A stretch of 64,000 nt of DNA, from contig DFOU01000003.1 of assembly GCA_002376865.1 (NCBI GenBank), forward strand, positions 62,572 through 126,571, in the 5' to 3' direction. Below the pieces are notes generated by a model, which was not told the DNA's origin, made no database searches, and saw only the letters and a list, made by a program, of their open reading frames with translations. Position numbers and translations under genes: made by a program. The DNA is from Patescibacteria group bacterium UBA3533. Its GTDB lineage: Bacteria; Patescibacteriota; Minisyncoccia; Phycocordibacterales; Phycocordibacteraceae. Shown piece after piece: positions 2 through 56,674 of the stretch (its first letter is position 1; each line of letters starts with the position of its first letter).

Positions 2-964
2 CATACACTGCTTCTTGCAGAGGCTGGAACTCTCTCTCCTATATCTGTTGAGACAATTCCTGCTCGAGATTTTGAAGATACATTTATTGATGGGGCAGAT
101 ATTGTAATTGCTAATGGATACTATGGAGTGCCAGTTGGTATTGATCCTCTGGTGATGTATTTCAACAAGGCCATGTTAAATAATGCGCGTGTAAGTGAGG
201 CGCCAAAATTTTGGGAGCAGTTCACTGGCCTTGTACCTCGCTTTGTAGAGACAGCAGGAGGGTTCTCAATTGAGAAGAGTTTTGTGGCGCTTGGTGCGTA
301 TGAAAACATTACCCATGCAGAGAAAATACTTGCGAGCTTCTTCTTCCAGGTTGGATCTCCAATTAGAGGTGCAAGCGGGCAGGTAGAACTTGTTGGAGGA
401 GAAAATGAGGATGTGGAGAGTGCGCTTCGTTTCTATACAGAGTTTGCTAATCCAAATACAAGTGCATACAGTTGGAACAAAAGTCTCAAGGAGGATAGGC
501 AGGCATTCCTCGCAAATGATCTAGCTATTTACTTTGCTCCGGCAAGTGAAGGGAAGAGCTTGGCGCTTGCTAACCCAAACATTTCTATTGGTTCTGCGGC
601 ATTTCCGCAGCTTGAGGGAGGGAATTCAGTTGTGTATGGGGATGTGTATGTATTTGCAACACCAAAGGATGCGCGGAATGTAACTGCAGCAAAGACTGCA
701 GCCCTTGCCTTTACAGGAAAGAATGTAGCTGAAGTATTCGCACAGGTGCTTAATATGGCTCCTGTGCGGAGAGATTTGGTAAGCACATCTCAGAATGACC
801 CGCTTCTTGATCTTGCATATGACGAAGCGTTTATTGCAAAAGGATGGCTCTCTCCACAACCAGCAAGAGTAGACACTGTGTTCTCTGCTATGGTTGATGA
901 TGTAGTAAGTGGTAGAAGTGATGCGTTAGATGCGCTCACAAAAGCACAACGTTCACTAAAATAA
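2..964 (+). CDS. ABC transporter extracellular solute-binding protein (family 1-like), 5' end outside window
   Basis: Open frame runs from the window edge to stop at 962-964. Composition and motifs (GADIVIANGYYGVPVGIDPLVMYFNKAMLN..., KGWLSPQP) resemble periplasmic sugar/solute-binding proteins. Confidence 0.5.
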   Translation, partial: HTLLLAEAGTLSPISVETIPARDFEDTFIDGADIVIANGYYGVPVGIDPLVMYFNKAMLNNARVSEAPKFWEQFTGLVPRFVETAGGFSIEKSFVALGAYENITHAEKILASFFFQVGSPIRGASGQVELVGGENEDVESALRFYTEFANPNTSAYSWNKSLKEDRQAFLANDLAIYFAPASEGKSLALANPNISIGSAAFPQLEGGNSVVYGDVYVFATPKDARNVTAAKTAALAFTGKNVAEVFAQVLNMAPVRRDLVSTSQNDPLLDLAYDEAFIAKGWLSPQPARVDTVFSAMVDDVVSGRSDALDALTKAQRSLK

Positions 965-965
965 T

Positions 966-1397
966 ATGCGTACAATACTCTCAATTCTATTTGGACTTTC
1001 ACTCCTTTTAACTCCAGCTGTTGCGTTGGCGCAAGGTGGAGGACCAACAGGCACAGGTCCAGGGAATACTGGAGGACCAACAGGACCTACTCCAGGTGGG
1101 GGTGGAAGTGTTTCTTGTCCAGATGGTTCTTCTGGTCTTTGTAATCCACTACAAGCTGGTTCTCTAGAAGAATTTCTTACAGCAATTCTAGAGTTCATTG
1201 TTCGTCTTGGAACAATTGTCGTTATTGTGATGCTTGTTGTGGTTGGGTTTATGTTTGTAAATGCCCGTGGAAATCCAGAAGAGATTAAAAAAGCACGGGA
1301 CGCACTCCTTTGGACACTTGTAGGGGGAGTAATTTTAATTGGCGCGTTTGTTATAGCAGAGGCCATTAAGGCAACAGTAGAAGCAATTACTTCATGA
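966..1397 (+). CDS. T4SS pilin-like small membrane protein (TrbC/VirB2-like, CPR type); signal peptide plus Gly/Pro-rich linker
   Basis: 143 aa. N-terminal signal peptide (LLTPAVALAQGG), then two hydrophobic helices around the conserved loop ARGNPEEIKKARDALLWTLVGGVILIGAFVIAEAI. First of four tandem paralogs. Confidence 0.55.
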   Translation: MRTILSILFGLSLLLTPAVALAQGGGPTGTGPGNTGGPTGPTPGGGGSVSCPDGSSGLCNPLQAGSLEEFLTAILEFIVRLGTIVVIVMLVVVGFMFVNARGNPEEIKKARDALLWTLVGGVILIGAFVIAEAIKATVEAITS

Positions 1398-1645
1398 CAT
1401 TTAAAGAGTTCGTCACAAGTCTCATAAACTTCTTTGACACAAGCGTCATTCCTCTTTTATTTGCAATCATGTTCTTCATATTTTTATGGGGAATATTTCA
1501 ATACTTTTTTATAAAGAGAGAGGATCCAGCTGCTCGATCTGAAGGCGCACAGTTTATGTTGTGGGGGATCATAGGCTTTGCTGTAGTTATTTCTATGTGG
1601 GGGCTAGTGCGTCTTCTCTTGGGAAGTTTTGGTATAGGGGTATAA
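1394..1645 (+). CDS. T4SS pilin-like small membrane protein (paralog 2)
   Basis: 83 aa, ATGA overlap with the previous gene. Two TM helices flank KREDPAARSEGAQFMLWGIIGFAVVISMWGLV, matching the loop of neighbouring paralogs. Confidence 0.5.
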   Translation: MTFKEFVTSLINFFDTSVIPLLFAIMFFIFLWGIFQYFFIKREDPAARSEGAQFMLWGIIGFAVVISMWGLVRLLLGSFGIGV

Positions 1646-1675
1646 GATTTATCCACATTAGAAGGGTTATTTAAT

Positions 1676-1700
1676 AATACCGGCCTCTTTGGCCGGTATT
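1676..1700 (+). other. GC-rich hairpin between pilin paralogs 2 and 3 (no U-tract)
   Basis: aataccggcc-tcttt-ggccggtatt forms a 10-bp perfect stem right before the start codon at 1711. Possible attenuator or RNA processing site. Confidence 0.35.
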
Positions 1701-1710
1701 ATGTGTCTAT

Positions 1711-2100
1711 ATGAAAAAGAACACACAAATTTTAGGAATCGGTTCTATCAGCGGATTTGCTGCTTATTTGTTTGCAGTAATGCCAACACTTGCGTACGCA
1801 CAGTTTGCTGGAGATAGCATTGAAGGACTTGTAGAAAGCGTTATTAGTTTTATTAATGACACACTAGTGCCGCTTGTATTTGCACTTGCACTTATCGTGT
1901 TTATTTGGGGACTTTTCCAAAGTTTCATTCTTGGAGGAACAGATCCAGAGAAGCGAAAGGCAGGACAAGATCTTATGCTTTGGGGAATTATTGCATTCTT
2001 CGTAATGGTGTCTGTATGGGGACTAGTTAATATCCTTACAGGAACATTTGGGTTCTCAGGTGGAGAAACTGTAACTCTTCCTGGAGTACAGGAGCGGTAA
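1711..2100 (+). CDS. T4SS pilin-like small membrane protein (paralog 3, with signal peptide)
   Basis: 129 aa. Signal peptide ending TLAYAQ, two TM helices, loop GGTDPEKRKAGQDLMLWGIIAFFVMVSVWGLV. Confidence 0.55.
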   Translation: MKKNTQILGIGSISGFAAYLFAVMPTLAYAQFAGDSIEGLVESVISFINDTLVPLVFALALIVFIWGLFQSFILGGTDPEKRKAGQDLMLWGIIAFFVMVSVWGLVNILTGTFGFSGGETVTLPGVQER

Positions 2101-2104
2101 TTAA

Positions 2105-2371
2105 ATGGATCTAGACGGATTACTTAACGGCATTGTCCGAGAATTAGTAAACCCATTCATTTGGCTACTAACTGGGGTTGCAACGATTATCTTTATCTAT
2201 GGAGTTCTTGAGTTTATGGGAACTTTTGGACAAAGTGAGGATACGCGTGCAAAAGGAAGAAGTCATATGATTTGGGGTATTGTCGGGCTTGCCATTATGT
2301 TTGGTGTGTTCGGAATCTTACGAATTGTATTAAATACATTCGGCTTAGATGCTCCAATAGAATCGTTATAA
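2105..2371 (+). CDS. T4SS pilin-like small membrane protein (paralog 4)
   Basis: 88 aa. Two TM helices, loop GQSEDTRAKGRSHMIWGIVGLAIMFGVFGIL. Confidence 0.5.
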   Translation: MDLDGLLNGIVRELVNPFIWLLTGVATIIFIYGVLEFMGTFGQSEDTRAKGRSHMIWGIVGLAIMFGVFGILRIVLNTFGLDAPIESL

Positions 2372-2380
2372 AAAAGAAAA

Positions 2381-2409
2381 CGGCGGGCCATAAAGGCTCG
2401 CCGTTTTTA
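2381..2409. terminator. Bidirectional rho-independent terminator between convergent genes
   Basis: cggcgggcc-ataaa-ggctcgccg hairpin, flanked by an A-run upstream and ttttt downstream. Confidence 0.6.
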
Positions 2410-2421
2410 GTGTGTGTCAGG

Positions 2422-2832
2422 TCATCGTAAAGAAACAATGTGCACCCGTCCTCGATCTTGAGTTTTGAATTCAAGACGGTTCAGGGGGTAGTAGCATCGC
2501 CGGTGTCCATTAGGAACCGTAAATCTTTCCGATTCCCATCGACGGAGTGCGAAGGAGGTGATATCTCCAACTGCGTTGTCTTCAATGCACTCACCTTGAA
2601 TCCCTTGGACAAGGTAGTGGGTCACAAGGACCTCTTCTCGTCCATGTAGGTAATACCAGGTGAGGTAGAAGGCGTATGCTCCCACTGCTGCTAAGGCGAG
2701 AATTTTCCAGGGGATCCGTTTGATTGAAAACCCTTTCATGTTCACGCCGGCAACTGCTGGCCTCCAGTAAAGGAGAATAATAATGATGACAATCGTGATA
2801 ATTGTCAGAAGGATAAACCACATACTATGCAT
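2422..2832 (-). CDS. Small membrane protein downstream of the SPFH gene (possible NfeD-like partner)
   Basis: ORF with an N-terminal hydrophobic helix (WFILLTIITIVIIIILLYW) and a second TM segment. Start site uncertain (2832 or 2823). Link to SPFH is by adjacency only. Confidence 0.3.
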   Translation of the reverse strand: MHSMWFILLTIITIVIIIILLYWRPAVAGVNMKGFSIKRIPWKILALAAVGAYAFYLTWYYLHGREEVLVTHYLVQGIQGECIEDNAVGDITSFALRRWESERFTVPNGHRRCYYPLNRLEFKTQDRGRVHIVSLR

Positions 2833-3961
2833 CACCCTTCTCCTCTTTCTTGGCAAGAAGTTTTGCTGCCGCTGGTGTCAGAAGGTCTGGCGCCACCACA
2901 ACAGTGTTTCCAGCTTCGCCAACATCTCCAAGAGTTTGAAGTCTAAAGATGTCAATGCCGTCTTTGCGTGCATTTACAGCACCCGCTACAGACTTGTATG
3001 CATCTGCTCTTGCTTCACCATCAACGCGTGTTGCATGAGCTGCAGCATCTGCTTCTATCTTGACCGCATCTGCGCGTCCCTCAGCTTCTGTTCTGAGAAC
3101 ATCAGCTTCGATTGTAGCAGTTGTGCGTCTTTGAGTAAGCTCACGCCACTCGGGAAGCGGGTCAACATTCAGAAGGTACGCGTTTGTAATTGTTATGCCG
3201 TACGTTTCTGCAACCCATTCCTGGATTGATTTTTCCGGATCAGGCCCAGTTTCAGGAACATGTCCATCTTCAGCTTCTATGTCCTGCGGGCATAAAATAC
3301 GGTCAGAGAAACCGCCGCTCTTGTGCCCACTTGTTTTTTCGCTGATCAACTCTTCATAAGTTTTGCTCAAGGCATAGTCCTTGGCGATCTCATTGAGAAT
3401 ACTCTCAATAATTTGAGGCCAATCCTCGTTCATGAAGAGTGCCTTATATGGATTGGTAATCCGTATAATAGCAACATATTCGAGAGTCACTGGAATGATC
3501 TCGCCGTCTTCGCCGTGGGTCTCGCCATCGGGCAGTACCATGGCATAGGGGAAGCGTGTAGCAAAACCAAAGTTAGTTGTCTCGTCAGTACGAGCAACAA
3601 TTTCACTTTTTTTGCCGACTTGTTTTAGTTCACGCCAGGATAATTTATAGCTATAAACTGTCTGGGCGAAAGGCACTCCAACAAGTCTCCATCCGAAGAT
3701 GTTGAATCGATTTTTCTTGTAGTCCGGATCAGGTACTATTTCCCAACGCTCTTCGTCAGGACCAGTGCCTTTGAACTTGTGTCCAGAATAAGCCAAGACA
3801 AAGTGACTAAATTCATTGCCGTTTACAACAGCTTGAAATGTCCCCTCGTCAGGCTTTGTGAAAATTATTCCGTTATCCGCAAAGAGTCTGTCGACCCAAA
3901 GTGGAGAGGTAAGAACCACACCGGTTCCTACCGCAGTCATTGTTGATAGGAGCATAGACAT
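2825..3961 (-). CDS. SPFH/band-7 (stomatin/prohibitin/HflKC-like) domain protein
   Basis: 378 aa. N-terminal TM segment, SPFH-like core, then an Ala/Glu-rich coiled-coil tail (EADVLRTEAEGRADAVKIEADAAAHATRVDGEARADAYK). Confidence 0.75.
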   Translation of the reverse strand: MSMLLSTMTAVGTGVVLTSPLWVDRLFADNGIIFTKPDEGTFQAVVNGNEFSHFVLAYSGHKFKGTGPDEERWEIVPDPDYKKNRFNIFGWRLVGVPFAQTVYSYKLSWRELKQVGKKSEIVARTDETTNFGFATRFPYAMVLPDGETHGEDGEIIPVTLEYVAIIRITNPYKALFMNEDWPQIIESILNEIAKDYALSKTYEELISEKTSGHKSGGFSDRILCPQDIEAEDGHVPETGPDPEKSIQEWVAETYGITITNAYLLNVDPLPEWRELTQRRTTATIEADVLRTEAEGRADAVKIEADAAAHATRVDGEARADAYKSVAGAVNARKDGIDIFRLQTLGDVGEAGNTVVVAPDLLTPAAAKLLAKKEEKGDA

Positions 3962-4088: not shown

Positions 4089-4173
4089 TGGTGGGGATGG
4101 GGAGACTTGAACTCCCACAGGTTGCCCTACTAGTTCCTAAGACTAGCGCGTCTACCAATTCCGCCACATCCCC
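4089..4173 (-). tRNA. tRNA-Leu (anticodon TAG), type II with long variable arm
   Basis: Reverse complement folds as GGGGATG / D-arm GGCGGAATTGGTAGACGCG / anticodon loop CTTAGGA / long variable arm / T-arm GGGAGTTCAAGTCTCCC / CATCCCC-A-CCA. Confidence 0.85.
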
Positions 4174-4208
4174 ATGTGATCGGTTCGCAGTATATCAAAA
4201 ACTTGCGA

Positions 4209-4283
4209 GTCCGCCCACTAGGACTCGAACCTAGGACCCACTGCTTAAGAGGCAGTTGCTCTACCAACTGAGCTATAGGCGGA
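4209..4283 (-). tRNA. tRNA-Lys (anticodon CTT)
   Basis: Reverse complement: TCCGCCT acceptor, D-arm AGCTCAGTTGGTAGAGC, anticodon stem-loop ACTGC-CTCTTAA-GCAGT, T-arm AGGTTCGAGTCCT. Confidence 0.85.
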
Positions 4284-4327
4284 TATGCACCAGATAGTAA
4301 CGAACTATCAAGATTTTGCAACGTTTG

Positions 4328-4413
4328 TGCCGGGAGCGGGACTTGAACCCGCACGATCATAATTGATCAAGGGAGTTTAAGTCCCTCGTGTCTACCAATT
4401 CCACCATCCCGGC
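4328..4413 (-). tRNA. tRNA-Leu (anticodon TAA), type II
   Basis: Reverse complement: GCCGGGA acceptor, D-arm GTGGAATTGGTAGACAC, anticodon loop CTTAAAC, long variable arm TGATCAATTATGATCG, T-arm GCGGGTTCAAGTCCCGC. Confidence 0.85.
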
Positions 4414-4420
4414 AAGAATG

Positions 4421-4492
4421 AGGCCTGGGCGGGAATCGAACCCGCGCATGGAGGTTTTGCAAACCCCAGCGTTACCACTTCGCCACCAGGCC
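4421..4492 (-). tRNA. tRNA-Cys (anticodon GCA)
   Basis: Reverse complement: GGCCTGG acceptor, anticodon stem-loop GGGGT-TTGCAAA-ACCTC, T-arm GCGGGTTCGATTCCCGC, U73 discriminator. Confidence 0.85.
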
Positions 4493-11940: not shown

Positions 11941-12807
11941 ATGTTTGACCAAATAGTACCGGATTGTGCTCGAGACTCCATAACATACCCTTGTGGGTGT
12001 GAATTTGTAGATGTGATGCAACTTGTGCAGAACATCATGAACTTTCTTATTTACTTTGGAACAATGGTTCTTGTTCTTATCTTGGTATATGTTGGCTTTC
12101 TATTTATAACGAGCCAGGGAAATCCAGGAGCGATTCAAAAAGCTCGAAGCATGGCAATGAGTGCCGTTATTGGGTTTGTGGTTATGCTCGGAGGATTCTT
12201 GATTGTGAGTACCATCATGAGTACGTTTGCAAATCAGGATGAGTACGGAAATTGGAGTAGTTTCTTTGGGATAGAGAGAAGTGTTTGTGAATTGGACTTT
12301 GAAGGTGGGATTGATACAAGAAACCCTGTTGTAACAGGGCCACAAGATGATTGTCCTACATGTGTATCACTTGAACCTCTTGGTATTGATTGTAAAAGCG
12401 GACGTTGTGAAGCAGATGAAGATATTGCAAATAGACTACAAGAGTTAGCAAATACAGCAGGGCTTGCTGCTTGGAGAGTTACAGAGGCTATACCAACCAC
12501 TGCAACACACAGGTGTGGGTGTCACTATAATGGAACCTGTGTAGATATAAACTTTACTGGCAACCTTCAGGCAAGTTCTCCAATTAGTGTAAGTCTTGGA
12601 CAAGAGCTAGGTACAGCAATAGCTGCGTTTATTGATGCTGCAGAGAGTCAGGGGTTGCGTGCAGAGTATGAGGTACCAATCAATGAAGACAAGGTGAATA
12701 TCTATACAGCACCAAGTGGTCCTAATCCAAACTCTATTAAAGTAATTTCTGCAATAACAGCGCCGCACTTTTCTGTGTACGGTCCTAGAGGGTGTCAAGC
12801 AAGATAA
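11941..12807 (+). CDS. T4SS pilin-like N-terminal domain fused to ~200-aa Cys-rich C-terminal extension
   Basis: 288 aa. Residues ~25-95 (MQLVQNIMNFLIYFGTMVLV...SQGNPGAIQKARSMAMSAVIGFVVMLGGFLIV) match the pilin paralogs at 966-2371. C-terminal part has paired cysteines (DDCPTC, CKSGRC, HRCGCHYNGTC). Alternative start at 12016. Confidence 0.45.
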   Translation: MFDQIVPDCARDSITYPCGCEFVDVMQLVQNIMNFLIYFGTMVLVLILVYVGFLFITSQGNPGAIQKARSMAMSAVIGFVVMLGGFLIVSTIMSTFANQDEYGNWSSFFGIERSVCELDFEGGIDTRNPVVTGPQDDCPTCVSLEPLGIDCKSGRCEADEDIANRLQELANTAGLAAWRVTEAIPTTATHRCGCHYNGTCVDINFTGNLQASSPISVSLGQELGTAIAAFIDAAESQGLRAEYEVPINEDKVNIYTAPSGPNPNSIKVISAITAPHFSVYGPRGCQAR

Positions 12808-15691: not shown

Positions 15692-16660
15692 ATGGACGCG
15701 AAATTAGCTGAAGCACAGCGGTATGATTCGGTATTCTGGATTGAGGTAGAGAAAATTCAACCTAATCCATACCAGCCACGGAAAGAATTTGACGAGCTAA
15801 ATCTAAAAACTCTTGCAGAGAGTATTCGGCAGTATGGAGTATTGCAGCCACTTGTTGTTACTCGTACTGAAACTGAAAAAGAAGATGGAGGTCTTCAAAC
15901 AAGCTATGAGCTTATTGCTGGGGAGCGAAGGCTTCGTGCCTCAAAGCTTGTAGGATTGCGTGAGGTTCCTGCAGTGATTAGAACTCAAAATGAGGATAGT
16001 CAGATGAAGCTCGAGCTTGCGATTATTGAGAATCTTCAAAGAGAAGATCTCAATGCTGTAGATCGAGCAAAAGCTTTTGATCTTCTTGCACAGAAATTTA
16101 AATTAACTCATGCAGAGATTGGAAAGAAGATGGGGAAGAGTCGAGAGTATGTAAGTAATAGTATTCGGCTTCTTGGACTTCCTGAAGAGATGCAAGAAGC
16201 TATTCGAAGTAAAAATATTACTGAGGGACATGCAAGGCCACTCCTAATGCTTTCTGATCGTCCTGATGAGCAAGCAACTCTATATAAGGAGATTGTTACC
16301 CGAAAGATTTCAGTGCGAGATAGTGAGCAATTGGCGCGGCGCATTGCTGTTGAGAAAACTCGGAAGAATGATCTTTCTCCTGAATTACAAAAGCTTGAAA
16401 AAGAACTCTCAGATGCTCTTGGAACACGAGTGCATATTGAGCGAGCTGAATCTGGAGGAAAGGTGGTTATTGATTTCTTCTCAGAAGATGATCTAAGTGC
16501 GATTAGAAATCACATTGCAGAGGAGGCTGTAAAAGAGGAAGAGCTTTCAGAAGAAGAAATTGTTGAAGATGTAGAAAACGCCCTTGAAGGTGTTGTGGAG
16601 GAAAAGAAAGAAGAGAAGAAGGATGATGATCTCTACAACATCTCAGGATTTACTGTATAG
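15692..16660 (+). CDS. parB: Chromosome partitioning protein ParB/Spo0J
   Basis: 322 aa. ParB N-terminal box (ELIAGERRLRASKLVG), HTH region, acidic C-terminal tail. No parA adjacent. Confidence 0.8.
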   Translation: MDAKLAEAQRYDSVFWIEVEKIQPNPYQPRKEFDELNLKTLAESIRQYGVLQPLVVTRTETEKEDGGLQTSYELIAGERRLRASKLVGLREVPAVIRTQNEDSQMKLELAIIENLQREDLNAVDRAKAFDLLAQKFKLTHAEIGKKMGKSREYVSNSIRLLGLPEEMQEAIRSKNITEGHARPLLMLSDRPDEQATLYKEIVTRKISVRDSEQLARRIAVEKTRKNDLSPELQKLEKELSDALGTRVHIERAESGGKVVIDFFSEDDLSAIRNHIAEEAVKEEELSEEEIVEDVENALEGVVEEKKEEKKDDDLYNISGFTV

Positions 16661-50580: not shown

Positions 50581-50835
50581 GTGAACGAAGACCAGATAAC
50601 AACAAAAGCTCCGCAAGAAGAGAACTCTCTTATAAAGATTGGAGGGATTATTTTTATAATCCTTTTCCTTCTTTCCGTGCTTGCGTACGCTATCACTCCA
50701 GTACGTCAAACTATTATTTTCTGGTGGCAGGATATGCAGGAGGCACAGCAGTTGCGTGCACTTGCTGATTTTGAAAAAGAGCAGCCGCAAGGGGATCTTA
50801 CAAAGGGAGCAAAACTTCGATTGCTTGATGAATAA
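50581..50835 (+). CDS. Small membrane protein (84 aa, GTG start)
   Basis: Single TM helix IGGIIFIILFLLSVLAYAI. Immediately precedes the paralog cluster. Confidence 0.35.
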   Translation: MNEDQITTKAPQEENSLIKIGGIIFIILFLLSVLAYAITPVRQTIIFWWQDMQEAQQLRALADFEKEQPQGDLTKGAKLRLLDE

Positions 50836-50836
50836 T

Positions 50837-51388
50837 ATGAAAAAATTTCTAACCACACGAACATTTTTTAGTACAGCATTGCCTCTCATTCTTTTCTTTG
50901 GATTTGTAGGTGTAGTTTCTGGAAGTTTTACTGAGCCAGGAAGCAATCCTCCAAGTGGAAATATTCCAGCTCCTATTAATGCAAGTGGTGCAGATCAGAC
51001 AAAGTCAGGAAATCTTTGGGTAGATAATGTAATTGCAGATAGTCTCAAGGCACTTTCTGAGCTTTGTATTGGTACTGAGTGTCGTACAGCATGGTCTGTG
51101 CCAGGACAGGATTTTTCAACAACATGTACCGTAAATAGAAAGATTGTTGCTAACCCTAGTAGCCCGGGAATTCCACATGCGTCTCGAGGGTCAACAGATC
51201 TTTGGCAGCTTGCCCAAGAGTGCCGTTGGCGTATCTCAAGCGCTGAGCGCGATGCAGGGTGGATGCTTGTTGGATTTGACAACTGTCCTTCTGTTGCTAG
51301 TCGAGACTGTGCAGGAGCAAGTTATTGTCAGTATATTCAACTAAGTTGTGAGTCTGGAATTACTACAAGTCGCGGGCGACACCGATAA
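50837..51388 (+). CDS. Secreted Cys-rich protein, paralog A of a three-member tandem family
   Basis: Signal peptide, then FTEPGSNPPSGNIPAPIN, CIGTECRTAW and DNCPSVASRDCAGASYCQYIQLSCESGIT blocks shared with paralogs B and C. Confidence 0.55.
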   Translation: MKKFLTTRTFFSTALPLILFFGFVGVVSGSFTEPGSNPPSGNIPAPINASGADQTKSGNLWVDNVIADSLKALSELCIGTECRTAWSVPGQDFSTTCTVNRKIVANPSSPGIPHASRGSTDLWQLAQECRWRISSAERDAGWMLVGFDNCPSVASRDCAGASYCQYIQLSCESGITTSRGRHR

Positions 51389-51391
51389 TTT

Positions 51392-52090
51392 ATGAATATG
51401 CAAAAATACATACAAAAAGCACTTCACATTTCAGGACTTCTTGCCGCAGTATTCATTTTTGTTGGTATTGCATATGCTATTAACTTCACACATCCAGGAT
51501 CTTCTCCAACTGGGGGAAATGTTGCAAAGCCTATTAATGTAGGTTCAGCAAGTCAGGTAAAAGAAGGAGGACTTACTCTTGACGAGTTAGTAGCAACTGG
51601 AAAAATTACAGGAGAGAATCAAATTTGTATAGGAAATGACTGTAAGAGTGCGTGGCCTGGAGGAAATGCATCACAATTTTCTACAGCTTGTCAAATACAT
51701 ACTCTTACCATTGCAGCAGACGATGACCAGCCAGGTGTACCGCACAATAATACTCGTATTACACGAGATGGTTTGGCGCAAAACTGCAATAGCCACCTTA
51801 CACAAGAAGAGAAAGATCTTGGCTTTATGATGGTCTCATTCGATAACTGCCCTGGTGTGTCAGGGCGAGACTGCTCAGGAGCAAGTTACTGTAAGTACAT
51901 TCGCTTTGAGTGTGATGCAGGTATTACTTTTAGGCAGGGCTCATTCTCTATAGGAGATCCTTCACATGAACCAGCGTGTAGGGACGGAAGAGATAACGAT
52001 GGAGATGGACTTGTAGACATGGATGATATTGGTTGTGATTATCAAGATGACCCAAGTGAGGAAAATGATCCAGGACAACAAAGAAATTAG
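51392..52090 (+). CDS. Secreted Cys-rich protein, paralog B (with acidic Asp-rich C-terminal tail)
   Basis: Signal peptide, FTHPGSSPTGGNVAKPIN, CIGNDCKSAWP, DNCPGVSGRDCSGASYCKYIRFECDAGITF. C-terminal DGRDNDGDGLVDMDD resembles a Ca-binding or dockerin-like acidic motif. Confidence 0.55.
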   Translation: MNMQKYIQKALHISGLLAAVFIFVGIAYAINFTHPGSSPTGGNVAKPINVGSASQVKEGGLTLDELVATGKITGENQICIGNDCKSAWPGGNASQFSTACQIHTLTIAADDDQPGVPHNNTRITRDGLAQNCNSHLTQEEKDLGFMMVSFDNCPGVSGRDCSGASYCKYIRFECDAGITFRQGSFSIGDPSHEPACRDGRDNDGDGLVDMDDIGCDYQDDPSEENDPGQQRN

Positions 52091-52091
52091 T

Positions 52092-52736
52092 ATGAAAACA
52101 ATCTTCAAACAAAAGGAGTTTACAAAAGGGTCTGCAATGGTTATTGCAGGACTCCTGCTCCTTTCAGGAACTGTACTTGCTGCGTCATTCTCTCAGCCCG
52201 GAAGTAACTTCCCAGCAGGAAACACGCTTGCTCCAATTCAAGAATCTTCTCAAGATCAATCTAAAGCAGGTGGTATTACAGCTAATAATGTTCGTGGATA
52301 TAATCTAAAAGGAACATCTGAGGTTTGTATTGGAAATGATTGCCGCAGCTCTTGGCCAACAGGAGGTGGTTCAACACTTTCAACAAACTGTGCGCTTGAA
52401 AACCTTATTCTTGAAGGGGACCCACATGGATCAAGCGGAGCTGTAAAAAAGGGAGATGTAGGTAGTCGTTGCGACAACATCCTTGGTTCACGAGCAAGTG
52501 AAGGGTGGGTAAATGTAGCACATGACAAGTGTCCTGGAGTTCAGGGTCGAGACTGTGCAGGAACTAATTACTGCCAGTACTTTAGAATTAATTGTGCAAG
52601 TGGCGTAACTTTTAGTGCAGGAGATCACACGCTTCGAGATACAGGAAGTGGCTCTTCAGGTGGGAGCAATGGAGGTGGTGGTGGAGATAATGGAACTGAA
52701 GGAGATGGTCCAAATGGCCCTGCTCTTCAAAATTAG
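52092..52736 (+). CDS. Secreted Cys-rich protein, paralog C (Gly-rich C-terminal tail)
   Basis: Signal peptide, [60 protein letters not shown]-terminal GSGSSGGSNGGGGGDNG. Confidence 0.55.
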   Translation: MKTIFKQKEFTKGSAMVIAGLLLLSGTVLAASFSQPGSNFPAGNTLAPIQESSQDQSKAGGITANNVRGYNLKGTSEVCIGNDCRSSWPTGGGSTLSTNCALENLILEGDPHGSSGAVKKGDVGSRCDNILGSRASEGWVNVAHDKCPGVQGRDCAGTNYCQYFRINCASGVTFSAGDHTLRDTGSGSSGGSNGGGGGDNGTEGDGPNGPALQN

Positions 52737-52741
52737 TTTTT

Positions 52742-55525
52742 ATGAATATGCAAAAAACAGTATTTCGAACACTTATTCTCACACTCGTATTTTTCGTGAG
52801 CACGTCATTTGCGCACGCACAATTCTTTTCAGTTCTTGGTGATAATTTTACTAACGCAGAACCAGAACCCACTCCAGTTGCAGTACAAGAGCCATCTCCA
52901 ATTATAAATCCAACTCCTGATCCAATTGTTTCAGATCCAGATCTTACTGTTGGAAATACTACAGTTATAGGAGCACGTGAGGTGGGAAGTACACTTACAC
53001 TCTCTGCAATTATGAGAAATATTGGACTTGGTACTGCAGAGTACGGTCCAGGCTTTCTTGTTTACTCTCAAGTGTACGATAGGACTCGTCGTCAGAACAT
53101 TGGAGAAGGATTGCGTGGGTATGGGTCCCCACTACTACCTTTAAGAAGCAGGGCACTTCAAGATACGTGGACACCAACACAATCAGGAGACTATCAAGCT
53201 CGTTTTTGTGCTGATATTCCGCCAAACCCATCAGGAAACGTAAGTGAGAGTAATGAGGGCAATAACTGTGGCGCATGGACAACTTTTTCTATCAATGCAG
53301 CAGGGCAGCCAGACCTCTCAGTTGATGCACCAAGTATTTCAGGAACACGACAGGCCGGGCAAACGCTTACATTCTCTTCACGAATGAGAAATATTGGAAA
53401 TGCAACAGCTTCACGTTCAGGTAATTTTGCAACCACATTCCAAATCTATCGCTCTTCAACACAAATTGTTGGAAGAGGAACTTCAACAAATGGACAGGCT
53501 CTTTCAGCTGGAGCATCAAGGACCATAACTGATACGTGGACTGCAGAGGCTGGAAGTTATGTTGCGCGCTTCTGTGCAGATATCCCCCCTGCGAGTCCTG
53601 GAAATATTCCAGAGAGCAATGAGAGCAACAACTGTAGCGGATGGACAAGCTTTACTGTCTCAAGTCCTGTGGCATCAGGAGCACCAGACCTTACGGTAGG
53701 TGCTACAAGTATTTCTGGAACACCAACGCTTAATCAGGCACTCAATTTCTCTGCAACAATGTCTAATATTGGAAATGCAACAGCCTCACACTCAGGTGGA
53801 TTTAGAAATTACTTCCAGGTATGGGATTTTACACGAAGTCAAAATAATGGAACAACTATTACAAACAAGGGTTCAAATCTAAATGTAGGACAAAGCAGAA
53901 CGCTAACAGGAAGCTTTACTCCGACTCAAGCTGGAAACTATCAAGCGCGTTTCTGTGCTGATATTCCGCCAAACCCATCAGGAAATGTAAGTGAGAGTAA
54001 CGAGAATAATAACTGTGGAGCCTGGCAATCATTCACTGTTGCTGATGTACCTGCAGGAAGTGGTGCAGGAGACCGTCTTACAGGACACGCATGGTCTTCA
54101 AACATTGGATGGGTGTCATTTTATGGACCGGGGTATGAGGTAAATATTGATGCAAATTCAGGAAATCTCTCAGGATATGCATGGTCTTCAAACATTGGAT
54201 GGATTAGCTTTAATGGAAATCATACAAATGGATGTCCAAGTGGAAGTTGTCAGGCAAATTATAATAATTCAAATGGAAATGTAACCGGATGGGCAAAGGC
54301 GCTAGCTGGAGGAGGATCTAATTCAGGAAACTGGGACGGGTGGATCTATCTTGGACAGAGCTCTCGTGTGGGGGTAAACGTAGATGCCAACTGTAACTGG
54401 AATGGGCGAGCGTGGGGAGGAGGCTCATCATTAAGCACGGGTGTAATCGGATGGCTGTCATTTAATGGACCAGGGTATGGAGTAACAGGAACAGGAGCAG
54501 GGTGTCCTATTGCTGAGCCAGCACCTGTTGCAAGTCTTGCGCTTAATCCAGAAATTATTCTTGAAGGCGCATCAAGTCAATTAACATGGGGGTCAACAGG
54601 GGCAACTAGTTGTGTTGGAACAAATTTCAGTACTGGAGGGTCAACAAGCGGAACTGTAAATGTTTCTCCGAGTACTACAACTGGATATTCTGTTCGATGT
54701 ACAGGACCTGGAGGAGTAGATACTGCAAGCGCGCAACTTACTGTTGACAGTGTAACTCAGACTGCAACAGCAAGTCTTAGTGTCAGTCCAGCAAGTATTC
54801 AAACTGGAAATAGCGCAACGCTATCATGGAGCTCTGCAAATGCAGATAGCTGTACTGGGACAAACTTTAGTACCGGAGGAAGTACAATTGGTTCAATGAG
54901 TGTTTCTCCAAGTTCAACAGTGACATACGGTCTTGAGTGTTCAAATACTGGTAATTCAGACACTGACAGCGCAACACTTACTGTAACTCAAGGTCCAGGA
55001 GGTGGTGGTGGCGGAAGCCGACCAACCGCAGATATTAATGCGAGTCCACGATCAATTCTAATTGGAGAGTCGTCAACAATTAGTTGGACATCAACTAATG
55101 CCGATAGCTGTAGTGGAACAGGATTTAGTACGAGCGGTTCAACAAGTGGAAATGCTGCTGTTTCGCCAACAAGTGATGCAACATATCAGGTACAGTGTAC
55201 AAATAGCCAAGGAAGTACAAATGACTTTGTAGATGTTGAGGTCTTGCAACCAAACATTACTATTACCGTAGATGGTGAGTCAGACTCTATTCGAGTTGCC
55301 AAAGATGCAGTGGTTGATGTTGTCTGGCATGCAGAAGATACTGATAGTTGTGATGTTGTAGGTCCTGGAGTTCTTGTAAACAATGCAACTGACGATCCTT
55401 TCGATGGATCTGCAAGTGTAACTATTTCTGAGCGAAGTGTGTACACAATCGAGTGTGATGCTTCAACTGAAACATATACAGAATCAGTAACGGTTAATAT
55501 TCCTCCAGACTTCGAGGAGTTCTAA
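52742..55525 (+). CDS. Large secreted multi-repeat surface protein (putative adhesin)
   Basis: 927 aa. Signal peptide. Four ~120-aa repeats ending FCADIPPxxPGNxxESNExNNCxxW (CARDB-like), GWxSFNG tandem motifs, then four ~90-aa Ig-like repeats (LxWxSxNAxSCxGTNFSTGGST). Shares the tatgaatatgcaaaaa start context with paralog B. Confidence 0.65.
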   Translation: MNMQKTVFRTLILTLVFFVSTSFAHAQFFSVLGDNFTNAEPEPTPVAVQEPSPIINPTPDPIVSDPDLTVGNTTVIGAREVGSTLTLSAIMRNIGLGTAEYGPGFLVYSQVYDRTRRQNIGEGLRGYGSPLLPLRSRALQDTWTPTQSGDYQARFCADIPPNPSGNVSESNEGNNCGAWTTFSINAAGQPDLSVDAPSISGTRQAGQTLTFSSRMRNIGNATASRSGNFATTFQIYRSSTQIVGRGTSTNGQALSAGASRTITDTWTAEAGSYVARFCADIPPASPGNIPESNESNNCSGWTSFTVSSPVASGAPDLTVGATSISGTPTLNQALNFSATMSNIGNATASHSGGFRNYFQVWDFTRSQNNGTTITNKGSNLNVGQSRTLTGSFTPTQAGNYQARFCADIPPNPSGNVSESNENNNCGAWQSFTVADVPAGSGAGDRLTGHAWSSNIGWVSFYGPGYEVNIDANSGNLSGYAWSSNIGWISFNGNHTNGCPSGSCQANYNNSNGNVTGWAKALAGGGSNSGNWDGWIYLGQSSRVGVNVDANCNWNGRAWGGGSSLSTGVIGWLSFNGPGYGVTGTGAGCPIAEPAPVASLALNPEIILEGASSQLTWGSTGATSCVGTNFSTGGSTSGTVNVSPSTTTGYSVRCTGPGGVDTASAQLTVDSVTQTATASLSVSPASIQTGNSATLSWSSANADSCTGTNFSTGGSTIGSMSVSPSSTVTYGLECSNTGNSDTDSATLTVTQGPGGGGGGSRPTADINASPRSILIGESSTISWTSTNADSCSGTGFSTSGSTSGNAAVSPTSDATYQVQCTNSQGSTNDFVDVEVLQPNITITVDGESDSIRVAKDAVVDVVWHAEDTDSCDVVGPGVLVNNATDDPFDGSASVTISERSVYTIECDASTETYTESVTVNIPPDFEEF

Positions 55526-56597: not shown

Positions 56598-56674
56598 GGG
56601 CTCGTAGCTCAGTTGGCTAGAGCGCCTCACTTGCACTGAGGAGGTCGGGGGTTCGATTCCTCTCGAGTCCACCA
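56598..56674 (+). tRNA. tRNA-Ala (anticodon TGC), CCA encoded
   Basis: GGGCTCG acceptor with G3:U70, D-arm GCTCAGTTGGCTAGAGC, anticodon loop CTTGCAC, T-arm GGGGGTTCGATTCCTCT, ACCA 3' end. Confidence 0.9.

What the first reader, a model, noticed from the sequence alone, without database searches (positions are those of the whole stretch)
966..2371. Tandem array of four small T4SS-pilin-like paralogs without other secretion-system genes in view
Four same-strand ORFs (143, 83, 129, 88 aa) share a two-helix hairpin design. A hydrophobic helix is followed by a short charged loop (GNPEEIKKARD / DPAARSEGAQ / DPEKRKAGQD / EDTRAKGRSH) and then a [ML]-W-[GT]-[IL]-[IV]-G hydrophobic helix. This is the TrbC/VirB2-like pilin pattern common in CPR genomes. 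Paralogs 1 and 3 have cleavable signal peptides. Paralogs 2 and 4 begin with an amphipathic leader and are translationally coupled (ATGA overlap, 4-nt gaps). A GC-rich hairpin lacking a U-tract separates pairs 1-2 and 3-4. No VirB4, VirB6 or VirD4 is present within 64 kb, so this may be a pilin or other surface-filament locus decoupled from a T4SS.
Basis: partly seen in the sequence, partly recalled or inferred. Interest (0 to 1): 0.55.

Follow-up and report, generated by a model that had tools for sequence, protein, structure and literature searches.

The report
VirB2-like pilin operon in a Paceibacterium
Four small neighbouring genes encode secretion-system pilin-like membrane proteins of a kind already described in ultrasmall Patescibacteria (CPR); the less expected points are that they form one conserved, fast-evolving operon with a solute-binding protein gene and lie far from the secretion-machine genes.

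Summary
Four + strand genes (966-1397, 1394-1645, 1711-2100, 2105-2371) each score above Pfam's threshold for T4SS_pilin (PF18895). Each has two hydrophobic helices joined by a charged loop. No VirB4, VirB6 or coupling-protein gene lies in the 64 kb.

Tandem VirB2-like pilin arrays in Patescibacteria, including arrays far from virB4, are already published (Wang 2023; Quinonero-Coronel 2025). Four related genomes with this same locus are listed there as VirB4-positive. So the separation is physical, and functional independence is not shown.

New detail:
- The array is the 3' part of an operon led by a membrane-anchored orphan solute-binding protein (SBP) gene, whose stop lies 1 nt before pilin 1.
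- About 68 species-level Paceibacteria genomes carry this operon at the same housekeeping position, with 4-7 pilin genes.
- Each array position is its own orthologous class.
- Most relatives have a promoter before the last two genes.
- The SBP and pilin genes evolve faster than their flanks.

Best reading: these are heteromeric subunits of the Patescibacteria type IV secretion pilus or channel, assembled by machinery encoded elsewhere (confidence 0.55). This is a new member of a known kind, of modest interest.

The parts
2..964 (+). 3' part (residues ~96-416) of a 416-aa extracellular solute-binding protein (SBP) gene. The gene starts about 286 nt upstream of the window. It is the first conserved gene of the operon.
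   Evidence: The full-length protein P0129 is 100% identical. Its homologues carry PF13416/PF01547 and are named 'extracellular solute-binding protein'. It has an N-terminal membrane anchor. Its stop is 1 nt before the ORF1 ATG. The same adjacency holds in 61 of 68 related loci, with a gap of 10 nt or less and a median of 2 nt.
966..1397 (+). Pilin 1 (143 aa): signal peptide, low-complexity G/P/T-rich linker with an internal repeat, a conserved NPL motif, then the two-helix pilin domain.
   Evidence: PF18895 scores 35.8 bits (cut-off 26.6) and PF04956 TrbC 29.4 bits (cut-off 27.9). Alignment A3 shows the hypervariable linker and the invariant N60 and P61. This class is conserved at the first array position in 57 of 64 nearest-neighbour tests.
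1394..1645 (+). Pilin 2 (83 aa): no signal peptide, acidic N-tail, two transmembrane helices. It is translationally coupled to pilin 1 by an ATGA overlap.
   Evidence: PF18895 scores 32.5 bits. The -4 overlap recurs in many related loci.
1674..1702 (+). Perfect 12-bp hairpin (ATAATACCGGCC / GGCCGGTATTAT) between the two gene pairs. Its 3' arm contains a -10-like TATTAT (1697-1702), 8 nt before the pilin 3 ATG.
   Evidence: See (-21.9 kcal/mol, z -3.7). It is present only in close relatives (L006, L008, L018). Forty-six of 55 other loci instead have TTGAC-N17-TAnnnT at this position. Its roles as a partial terminator and a promoter are inferred.
1711..2100 (+). Pilin 3 (129 aa): signal peptide plus pilin domain plus a C-terminal tail ending in a conserved P. 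It is the candidate major subunit.
   Evidence: PF18895 scores 42.6 bits. There are 516 word-search homologues, some named 'pilin' by NCBI. This class has the highest cross-genome domain identity, 0.65.
2105..2371 (+). Pilin 4 (88 aa): no signal peptide, acidic N-tail, two transmembrane helices. It starts 4 nt after pilin 3, with AGGAG upstream.
   Evidence: PF18895 scores 34.2 bits. The last-position class is conserved in 63 of 64 tests. A median N-extension of 3 residues means no signal peptide across genomes.
2377..2407 (.). Bidirectional intrinsic terminator (13-bp stem, A-tract before and T-tract after), shared with the convergent gene that ends at 2422.
   Evidence: A strong hairpin follows the last pilin gene in 98% of 65 related loci (median -27.9 kcal/mol, median z -4.0).
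2422..3961 (-). Convergent pair: a 144-aa single-pass membrane protein and a 378-aa SPFH/Band-7-like protein. The position is conserved but the sequences are hypervariable. Whether they belong to the pilin system is open.
   Evidence: Band_7 scores 27.5 bits. A pair of similar size is present in nearly all related loci. There is no BLASTP similarity to the pair in L006, although flanks are 93-100% identical. Identity is 0.11-0.37 in nearly all closely related genome pairs, with one at 0.52.
11941..12807 (+). Fifth pilin-domain gene (288 aa): a pilin-1-like two-helix domain (residues ~27-100), no signal peptide, and a ~190-aa Cys-containing C-terminal domain.
   Evidence: PF18895 scores 24.5 bits, just under the 26.6 cut-off. 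The sequence VGFLFITSQGNPGAIQKARS resembles pilin 1. BLASTP of a pilin 1 orthologue against it gives 42% over 73 aa. It is preceded by a hairpin and GGTATTAT, as pilin 3 is.

Best explanation
The four genes encode VirB2-like (PF18895) pilin subunits of the Patescibacteria type IV secretion system, which is of the monoderm MPF-FATA type.

Proposed steps, each marked as shown or inferred:
1. Each protein inserts into the cytoplasmic membrane as an N-out/C-out helical hairpin with its K/R-rich loop inside. Pilins 1 and 3 use a Sec signal peptide cut by signal peptidase I. Pilins 2 and 4 use a short acidic N-tail. The sequence features are shown; the insertion routes are inferred.
2. The four are ancient, non-redundant paralogues that co-assemble. 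Pilin 3 is probably the abundant subunit. Pilin 1 carries a flexible, variable, surface-exposed N-terminal extension. Pilins 2 and 4 are minor or base subunits. The paralogy is shown; the roles are inferred.
3. A VirB4/TrsD/VirB3/VirB6 machine encoded elsewhere in the chromosome extracts them from the membrane and assembles them into a pilus or channel extension that contacts a host cell (inferred from relatives and the literature).
4. They are co-transcribed with a membrane-anchored orphan solute-binding protein. In most relatives the last two genes have their own promoter. In this genome a hairpin with a -10-like box occupies that position. This probably sets the subunit ratios (inferred).
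For: Family:
- All four exceed the PF18895 cut-off, and ORF1 also exceeds TrbC/VirB2.
- All four give near-full-length but sub-threshold matches to the Mycoplasma ICE 'pilin-like conjugal transfer protein' model NF045849.
- The pilin 1 and pilin 3 profiles are homologous: hhalign probability 94%, E = 9e-8.

Architecture:
- Two transmembrane helices with a basic loop, and acidic N-tails.
- AF2 gives a helical hairpin.

Non-redundant roles:
- Domain identity at the same position across genomes is 0.49-0.65, against 0.19-0.34 between positions.
- The nearest neighbour falls in the same class in 57/64, 62/64 and 63/64 tests.
- Signal-peptide presence or absence is fixed by position.

Surface exposure:
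- Against a genome with 99%-identical IF2, the pilins are 67-93% identical, and dS is 0.76-1.56 for pilins 1-3 against 0.18-0.35 for flanks.
- The pilin 3 changes sit in the N-terminal segment, the loop and the C-tail, while the helices are nearly identical.

Expression:
- TTGAC-N17-TAnnnT lies before the penultimate gene in 46 of 55 loci.
- A terminator follows the last gene in 98% of loci.

T4SS link:
- Pilin arrays inside the T4SS cluster are essential in Southlakia epibionticum (PMC10633639).
- VirB4 is present in 80% of Patescibacteria assemblies.
- Four genomes with this exact locus are VirB4-positive.
- Distal arrays in VirB4-positive genomes are tabulated in the literature.
Against: - No T4SS gene lies within 64 kb here, nor within 10 kb in about 70 related genomes. 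Unlabelled ORFs of 480 aa or more in those loci lack a Walker A motif.
- The rest of this genome could not be searched, so VirB4 presence here is inferred.
- No solved pilin is matched by fold (Foldseek, no hit at E <= 1e-3) or by sequence profile.
- The PF18895 name rests on similarity. No Patescibacteria T4SS pilus has been seen.
- Monoderm T4SSs normally have no pilus.
- Pilins 2 and 4 lack the leader peptide typical of VirB2, TrbC and TraA.
- Tight coupling to an SBP gene has no T4SS precedent that I know of.
- In three genomes a pilin 3/4-like pair sits just upstream of atpB instead.
Confidence: 0.55

Rival explanations
1. The proteins are T4SS components but do not form an extended pilus. 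They would be part of the membrane or cell-wall-spanning channel, as VirB2 is required for substrate transfer even in non-piliated systems, and as the small pilin-like protein of Mycoplasma ICEs may be.
For: - The sub-threshold hits cover almost the whole Mbov_0395 pilin-like model, which comes from a wall-less monoderm.
- Patescibacteria VirB4 nests in MPF-FATA, whose systems lack pili (PMC12102498).
- A review states that pilin-like subunits are needed even when no pilus is made (PMC12857230).
- No filament has been observed.
Against: - Fast evolution of the N-terminal and C-terminal segments, and the variable surface linker of pilin 1, suggest exposure to the outside.
- Four to seven distinct conserved classes is more than a simple channel lining would seem to need.
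Confidence: 0.2
2. The module is independent of any T4SS. The two-helix proteins would form a membrane or envelope complex that works with the co-transcribed solute-binding protein, for example by anchoring or presenting it for capture of host-derived nutrients. The 'T4SS pilin' label would then be only a distant family resemblance.
For: - SBP-pilin 1 adjacency with a gap of 10 nt or less holds in 61 of 68 species-level genomes.
- No ABC permease or ATPase gene lies next to the SBP in any locus.
- The SBP also evolves faster than flanks, for example 0.74 against 0.94.
- No T4SS gene is ever within 10 kb.
- Pilin 3/4-like pairs occur in non-T4SS contexts, upstream of atpB.
- No paper in the searched library links SBPs and these pilins.
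Against: - The whole 20-kb block from the beta-lactamase-fold gene and GyrA to IF2 and ClpB is syntenic, so adjacency may partly reflect genome stability.
- Members of the same Pfam family sit 2 genes from VirB4 in other Paceibacteria, and in arrays beside VirB4 in Microgenomatia (Table S3).
- Family members are essential within the T4SS cluster of S. epibionticum.
- Pilin pairs exist without an SBP (L029, L050, L051, L085).
Confidence: 0.15
3. The array is mainly a set of interchangeable variant cassettes. The paralogues would be redundant, used for antigenic or host-range variation, as proposed for Bartonella and Anaplasma VirB2 arrays and suggested for Patescibacteria.
For: - The published suggestion is in PMC12102498.
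- Copy number of pilin 3-type genes varies from 1 to 4.
- Divergence and dS are high between close relatives, which suggests allele replacement.
Against: - Each position is a distinct orthologous class kept across the class Paceibacteria, with fixed signal-peptide status.
- dN/dS is 0.09-0.29, which indicates purifying selection.
- No repeats or recombination sites flank the genes.
- The genes are co-transcribed, so they are not silent copies.
Confidence: 0.07

Closest known systems
VirB2-like pilin arrays of Patescibacteria (Southlakia epibionticum ML1 T4SS cluster; 441 arrays in 383 assemblies in Quinonero-Coronel et al. 2025)
   Same: The Pfam family (PF18895) is the same. Both are tandem arrays of 2-11 divergent paralogues, with a published mean identity of 25% against 12-45% here. 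The phylum is the same, and distal arrays in VirB4-positive genomes are already tabulated.
   Different: - In S. epibionticum and Microgenomatia the array lies inside or beside the virB4 cluster. Here it is more than 60 kb from any T4SS gene on one side and at least 10 kb on the other.
- Here it is fused into an operon with an orphan SBP gene at a fixed housekeeping position.
- The positional orthology and the internal promoter are not described in those papers.
VirB2/TrbC/TraA conjugative pilins of diderm T4SSs (PF04956)
   Same: Both are small proteins with two hydrophobic helices and a basic loop. Pilins 1 and 3 have a cleavable leader. ORF1 passes the PF04956 cut-off.
   Different: - ORF2 and ORF4 have no PF04956 match, and ORF3 is below the cut-off (18.3 bits against 27.9).
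- No match to solved pilins was found.
- Pilins 2 and 4 have no leader.
- The host is a monoderm with no VirB7, VirB9 or VirB10.
- The genes are not adjacent to virB3 or virB4.
Mbov_0395 / MMCAP2_0565 pilin-like conjugal transfer protein of Mycoplasma ICEs (NCBIfam NF045849)
   Same: It is an ~80-aa two-helix protein of a monoderm MPF-FATA-type T4SS. All four ORFs align over nearly the whole model.
   Different: Scores of 20.8-36.0 bits are below the 40-bit cut-off. That protein is single-copy inside an ICE next to its VirB4.
Type IV pilins (T4P; PilA/PilE type)
   Same: Both are small, hydrophobic-N-terminus surface-filament subunits, often with several minor paralogues in one operon. T4P are also present in Patescibacteria.
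   Different: There is no class III leader (G|FxxxE), there are two membrane helices instead of one, and there is no Pfam T4P match. This array does not belong to that system.

Membership tests
Pfam PF18895 T4SS_pilin | Whole-protein HMM score at or above the gathering cut-off of 26.6 bits | tested here: met
   Scores are 35.8, 32.5, 42.6 and 34.2 bits for ORF1-4. The fifth gene at 11941-12807 scores 24.5, just below.
Pfam PF04956 TrbC/VirB2 pilin | Score at or above the gathering cut-off of 27.9 bits | tested here: inconclusive
   ORF1 scores 29.4 (met) and ORF3 scores 18.3 (not met). ORF2 and ORF4 give no match. ORF1 homologues all carry PF04956 in the precomputed table.
VirB2-type T4SS pilin (functional class) | Two hydrophobic helices joined by a short basic loop, in an N-out/C-out hairpin | tested here: met
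   The AF2 hairpin is. Acidic N-tails and K/R-rich loops fit the positive-inside rule (inference).
VirB2-type T4SS pilin (functional class) | Long cleavable leader peptide | tested here: inconclusive
   ORF1 and ORF3 have n-h-c regions ending in A-x-A|Q that are conserved in homologues. ORF2 and ORF4 have none. This split is fixed by array position across genomes. No SignalP-type predictor was available.
VirB2-type T4SS pilin (functional class) | Encoded with, or in the same genome as, VirB4 and channel subunits (VirB3, VirB6, TrsD) | not testable with these tools
   None is in the 64-kb window or within 10 kb in about 70 related loci. The rest of this genome could not be fetched. Four related genomes with the same locus are VirB4-positive in published Table S1.
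VirB2-type T4SS pilin (functional class) | Polymerises into an extracellular pilus, or is required for substrate transfer | not testable with these tools
   This needs imaging, proteomics or genetics. Fold and profile searches against solved pilins were uninformative.
Patescibacteria VirB2 array (as defined in PMC12102498) | Two or more pilin genes in tandem, or separated by one non-pilin gene, with divergent paralogues | tested here: met
   Four consecutive genes have pairwise domain identity of 12-45%. The published mean is 25% with a maximum of 54%.
NCBIfam NF045849 Mbov_0395 pilin-like conjugal transfer protein | Score at or above the curated cut-off of 40 bits | tested here: not met
   Scores are 29.6, 32.5, 36.0 and 20.8 bits. 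The proteins are related but not members.
Type IV pilin (T4P) | Class III signal peptide with G at -1, a hydrophobic N-terminus and E at +5; a single N-terminal helix | tested here: not met
   The motif is absent from all four sequences, and there is no T4P family hit.

The most novel reading that the evidence does not exclude
The SBP-pilin operon would be a distinct, class-wide Paceibacteria module. In it a membrane-anchored orphan solute-binding protein works physically with a heteromeric VirB2-like filament or conduit to capture or import host-derived molecules. That would be a secretion-system pilus repurposed for nutrient acquisition, with the SBP as its specificity element and no ABC transporter involved.
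Probability: 0.1. Interest if true: 0.75.

Novelty: new member of a known kind. Interest (0 to 1): 0.3.

Why it matters
Patescibacteria make up a large share of uncultured bacterial diversity and seem to live off host cells. Their type IV secretion system and its unusual pilins are essential in the one species tested, but what the system does is unknown.

This locus adds three things:
- In Paceibacteria the main pilin set is a vertically inherited core operon placed among housekeeping genes. It is not part of a mobile element and not part of the ATPase cluster.
- Its paralogues are fixed, distinct classes, which points to a heteromeric structure.
- It is always co-transcribed with an orphan solute-binding protein, and it sits in a fast-evolving patch of an otherwise conserved region.

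These points give concrete targets for structural modelling, metatranscriptomics and genetics. They do not change the general picture already published.

Tried and rejected
- Profile searches of the pilin 3 and pilin 1 alignments against PDB sequences gave only chance matches.
- I looked for a VirB4 query to test co-occurrence on the same contig by contig-length fingerprint. The only pilin-adjacent ATPase found was the 945-aa protein in L029. It sits in a recombinase-bearing mobile element and gives only weak CedD, TraD and VirB4 matches. It was a poor query, and the three homologue searches went elsewhere, so VirB4 in this genome remains untested.
- An apparent 661-aa 'SBP-pilin fusion' in L042 was an artefact of over-extending an ORF in a high-GC genome. 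The real pilin 1 starts at MRRLLPL.
- The internal hairpin is not a conserved RNA element. It is limited to close relatives, and Rfam finds nothing in the array.
- The type IV pilus reading was rejected because there is no class III leader.
- An anti-phage-defence reading of the SPFH pair found no PADLOC match.
- The antisense ORF 956-1366 lies in the G/P-rich linker region and was taken to be spurious. This is a judgement that was not tested further.
Full report
**Observation.** The region holds four + strand ORFs at 966-1397, 1394-1645, 1711-2100 and 2105-2371, encoding 143, 83, 129 and 88 aa.
- A hydropathy scan finds two membrane helices in each protein, and an extra N-terminal hydrophobic segment in ORF1 and ORF3. 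Those two end in ALA|Q and AYA|Q. The A-x-A-Q site is conserved in homologues.
- ORF2 and ORF4 start directly with a short acidic segment that aligns with the mature N-termini of ORF1 and ORF3.
- AlphaFold2 of ORF3 with 24 sequences gives pLDDT 76.5, a signal helix and a hairpin of helices 37-74 and 79-112.
- A perfect 12-bp hairpin lies at 1674-1702, and a bidirectional terminator at 2377-2407.
Only F97 and W116 are invariant among the four.

**Family.** All four pass Pfam T4SS_pilin PF18895, with 35.8, 32.5, 42.6 and 34.2 bits against a cut-off of 26.6.
- ORF1 also passes TrbC/VirB2 PF04956, with 29.4 bits against 27.9.
- All four align over almost the whole NCBIfam model of the Mycoplasma ICE pilin-like protein, but below its cut-off.
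- ORF1 is remote from the rest at 12-19% domain identity. A profile-profile comparison still supports homology, with probability 94% and E = 9e-8.
- A profile of ORF3 homologues finds 9,567 cluster representatives at E <= 1e-3, many with two or three pilin domains in one chain.
- Homologues come from Patescibacteria MAGs, and NCBI names some of them 'pilin'.
- Neither fold search nor profile search links the proteins to a solved pilin.

**Organism and surroundings.** Exact copies occur on marine (Tara Oceans) contigs of up to 317 kb.
- The nearest named relatives are 'Patescibacteria group bacterium UBA2103' and a Wolfebacteria MAG, both of class Paceibacteria.
- Every ORF of 150 aa or more in the window was scanned. 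They are housekeeping genes: IF2, ClpB, MiaA, Tdk, ParB, RelA/SpoT, TopA, DprA, SerRS, Dus, DnaX, BipA, Tgt, UvrABC and Ddl. There is also a small island after tRNA-Ala.
- No VirB4, VirB6, VirB3, TrsD or coupling protein is present.

**What the array belongs to.** The gene cut by the left edge of the window is a 416-aa extracellular solute-binding protein (SBP).
- It has an N-terminal membrane anchor. Its stop codon lies 1 nt before the ORF1 start.
- A scan of one genome per species with the pilin alignment returned 78 loci. My ORF calling and BLAST labelling show that about 68 of them have the same block.
- The block reads: beta-lactamase-fold protein, a 121-aa protein, GyrA, a methyltransferase, the SBP, the pilin array, then a convergent membrane protein and SPFH protein, then RbfA, IF2 and onward to ClpB.
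- Arrays have 5 genes in 36 loci, 4 in 19, 6 in 9 and 7 in 1.
- The SBP-to-pilin gap has a median of 2 nt and is 10 nt or less in 61 of 68 loci.
- No ABC permease accompanies the SBP in any locus.
- No unlabelled ORF of 480 aa or more in these loci has a Walker A motif.

**Paralogue classes.** Over 78 aligned domain columns, same-position proteins from different genomes are 49% (first), 65% (penultimate) and 53% (last) identical. Proteins from different positions are 19-34% identical.
- The nearest neighbour in another genome belongs to the same position class in 57/64, 62/64 and 63/64 cases.
- First-position proteins are about 152 aa. They have a signal peptide and a low-complexity G/P/T/S/N linker of variable length that ends in a conserved NPL motif.
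- Penultimate proteins are about 121 aa with a signal peptide.
- Last-position proteins are about 88 aa with none.
- The paralogues are therefore old and distinct. This fits a heteromeric assembly better than interchangeable cassettes.

**Expression signals.** A strong hairpin follows the last pilin gene in 98% of loci, with a median z of -4.0.
- In 46 of 55 loci with a gap of at least 45 nt, the space before the penultimate gene holds TTGAC-N17-TATCCT, TACAAT or TATGCT. The chance expectation is about 0.004 per gap. A TCCAC motif occurs in 43 of 55.
- The window and its closest relatives lack the TTGAC box. They have the hairpin instead, whose 3' arm carries TATTAT 8 nt before the ATG.
- The same hairpin-GGTATTAT arrangement precedes the fifth pilin-domain gene.
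- I infer two expression modules: SBP with pilins 1-2, and pilins 3-4.
- In three genomes a pilin 3/4-like pair sits on its own upstream of atpB, which fits this split.

**Evolutionary rate.** Against L006, IF2 and RbfA are 99% identical and flanks are 93-100% identical in nucleotides.
- Pilins 1-4 are 81, 86, 67 and 93% identical. dS is 0.76-1.56 for pilins 1-3 against 0.18-0.35 for flanks, and dN/dS is 0.09-0.18.
- The pilin 3 changes lie in the signal peptide, the N-terminal segment, the loop and the C-tail.
- The convergent membrane/SPFH pair shows no BLASTP similarity at all between these two genomes.
- The same pattern recurs in other close genome pairs: flanks 0.85-0.94, SBP 0.65-0.95, pilins 0.45-0.98, downstream pair 0.13-0.37.
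- This is what surface-exposed, interaction-related genes usually look like (inference).

**Relation to a T4SS.** Published work already covers the general phenomenon.
- S. epibionticum has an essential series of pilin genes in its T4SS cluster (PMC10633639).
- Quinonero-Coronel et al. report 441 VirB2 arrays of 2-11 genes with a mean identity of 25%.
- They find pilins near virB4 in only 1,135 of 1,948 assemblies, and VirB4 in 2,417 of 3,035 assemblies.
- Their Table S1 marks Parcubacteria C7867-001, -004, -007 and -008 as VirB4-positive. These are my loci L058, L030, L025 and L037, which carry the same SBP-pilin operon.
- Their Table S3 lists distal 3-4-gene arrays in VirB4-positive genomes.
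- I could not fetch the rest of this genome, so VirB4 here is inferred.
- Cumulative GC skew rises across the whole window, and ParB lies at 15.7 kb. This suggests the replication origin lies to the left, which is where Paceibacteria usually keep virB4. This is speculation.

**Verdict.**
- The pilin assignment is supported. 'Decoupled from a T4SS' is supported only as a physical arrangement.
- The most likely function is as subunits of the Patescibacteria T4SS pilus or channel, assembled by distal machinery.
- A T4SS-independent role with the SBP is a minority alternative.
- The array itself is a new member of a known kind.
- The SBP coupling, the positional orthology and the internal promoter are details I did not find in the searched literature.

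Noticed in passing
window 11941-12807 (+): This is a fifth pilin-domain gene of 288 aa. It has a pilin-1-like two-helix domain without a signal peptide, fused to a ~190-aa Cys-containing C-terminal domain. It scores just under the PF18895 cut-off and could be a tip or adhesin-type subunit. It is preceded by a hairpin and GGTATTAT, like pilin 3.
   Followed up: partly
window 2422-3961 (-), bounded by the tRNA cluster 4089-4492: A convergent 144-aa membrane protein and a 378-aa SPFH/Band-7-like protein keep their position in nearly all related loci. Their sequences are replaced beyond recognition, even between genomes whose flanks are 93-100% identical. There is no PADLOC match.
   Followed up: partly
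gap before the penultimate pilin gene in L005-L084 (e.g. L012, L013, L015, L020): A conserved sigma-70-like promoter, TTGAC-N17-TATCCT/TACAAT/TATGCT, occurs in 46 of 55 loci. An upstream TCCAC(A) motif of unknown role, 3-40 nt after the preceding stop in most loci, occurs in 43 of 55.
   Followed up: partly
L050:4168-5832, L051:9914-11568, L085:9944-11649: In three genomes a pilin 3/4-like pair sits directly upstream of atpB, the first gene of the F-type ATP synthase operon. AtpI usually occupies that position.
   Followed up: no
L029:613-10393 (contig labelled Maricaulis sp., probably mis-binned): A single pilin 3-like gene lies next to a tyrosine recombinase, a 945-aa and a 421-aa VirB4/T4CP/CedD-like ATPase, and a serine recombinase. 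This looks like a mobile element that carries this pilin family.
   Followed up: partly
window 56598-62287: This is a likely integrated island. It holds tRNA-Ala, a 520-aa serine recombinase (56617-58179, -), a LOOT RNA (RF03000, 59976-60088, 65.6 bits), and a 615-aa AAA_15 ATPase that resembles defence ATPases (OLD/Toprim, AriA, PtuA; E down to 7e-22).
   Followed up: partly
window 50681-55525 (+): Three consecutive unknown proteins of about 235 aa each have one membrane helix. They are followed by a 927-aa CARDB-repeat protein. This may be a surface-protein cluster.
   Followed up: no
proteins P0271-P0300; P0018, P0036: Many family members are single chains with two or three tandem pilin domains. 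These are covalent versions of the multi-gene arrays.
   Followed up: no
window 1-64000: Cumulative GC skew rises monotonically, and ParB lies at 15692-16660. The replication origin probably lies to the left of the window. DprA is at 20645-21607.
   Followed up: no
PMC12102498 Table S3: In the published table the PF18895 column is filled only for proteins near virB4. Distal pilins appear only when a CONJScan profile hits them. Distal arrays like this one may therefore be under-counted there.
   Followed up: no
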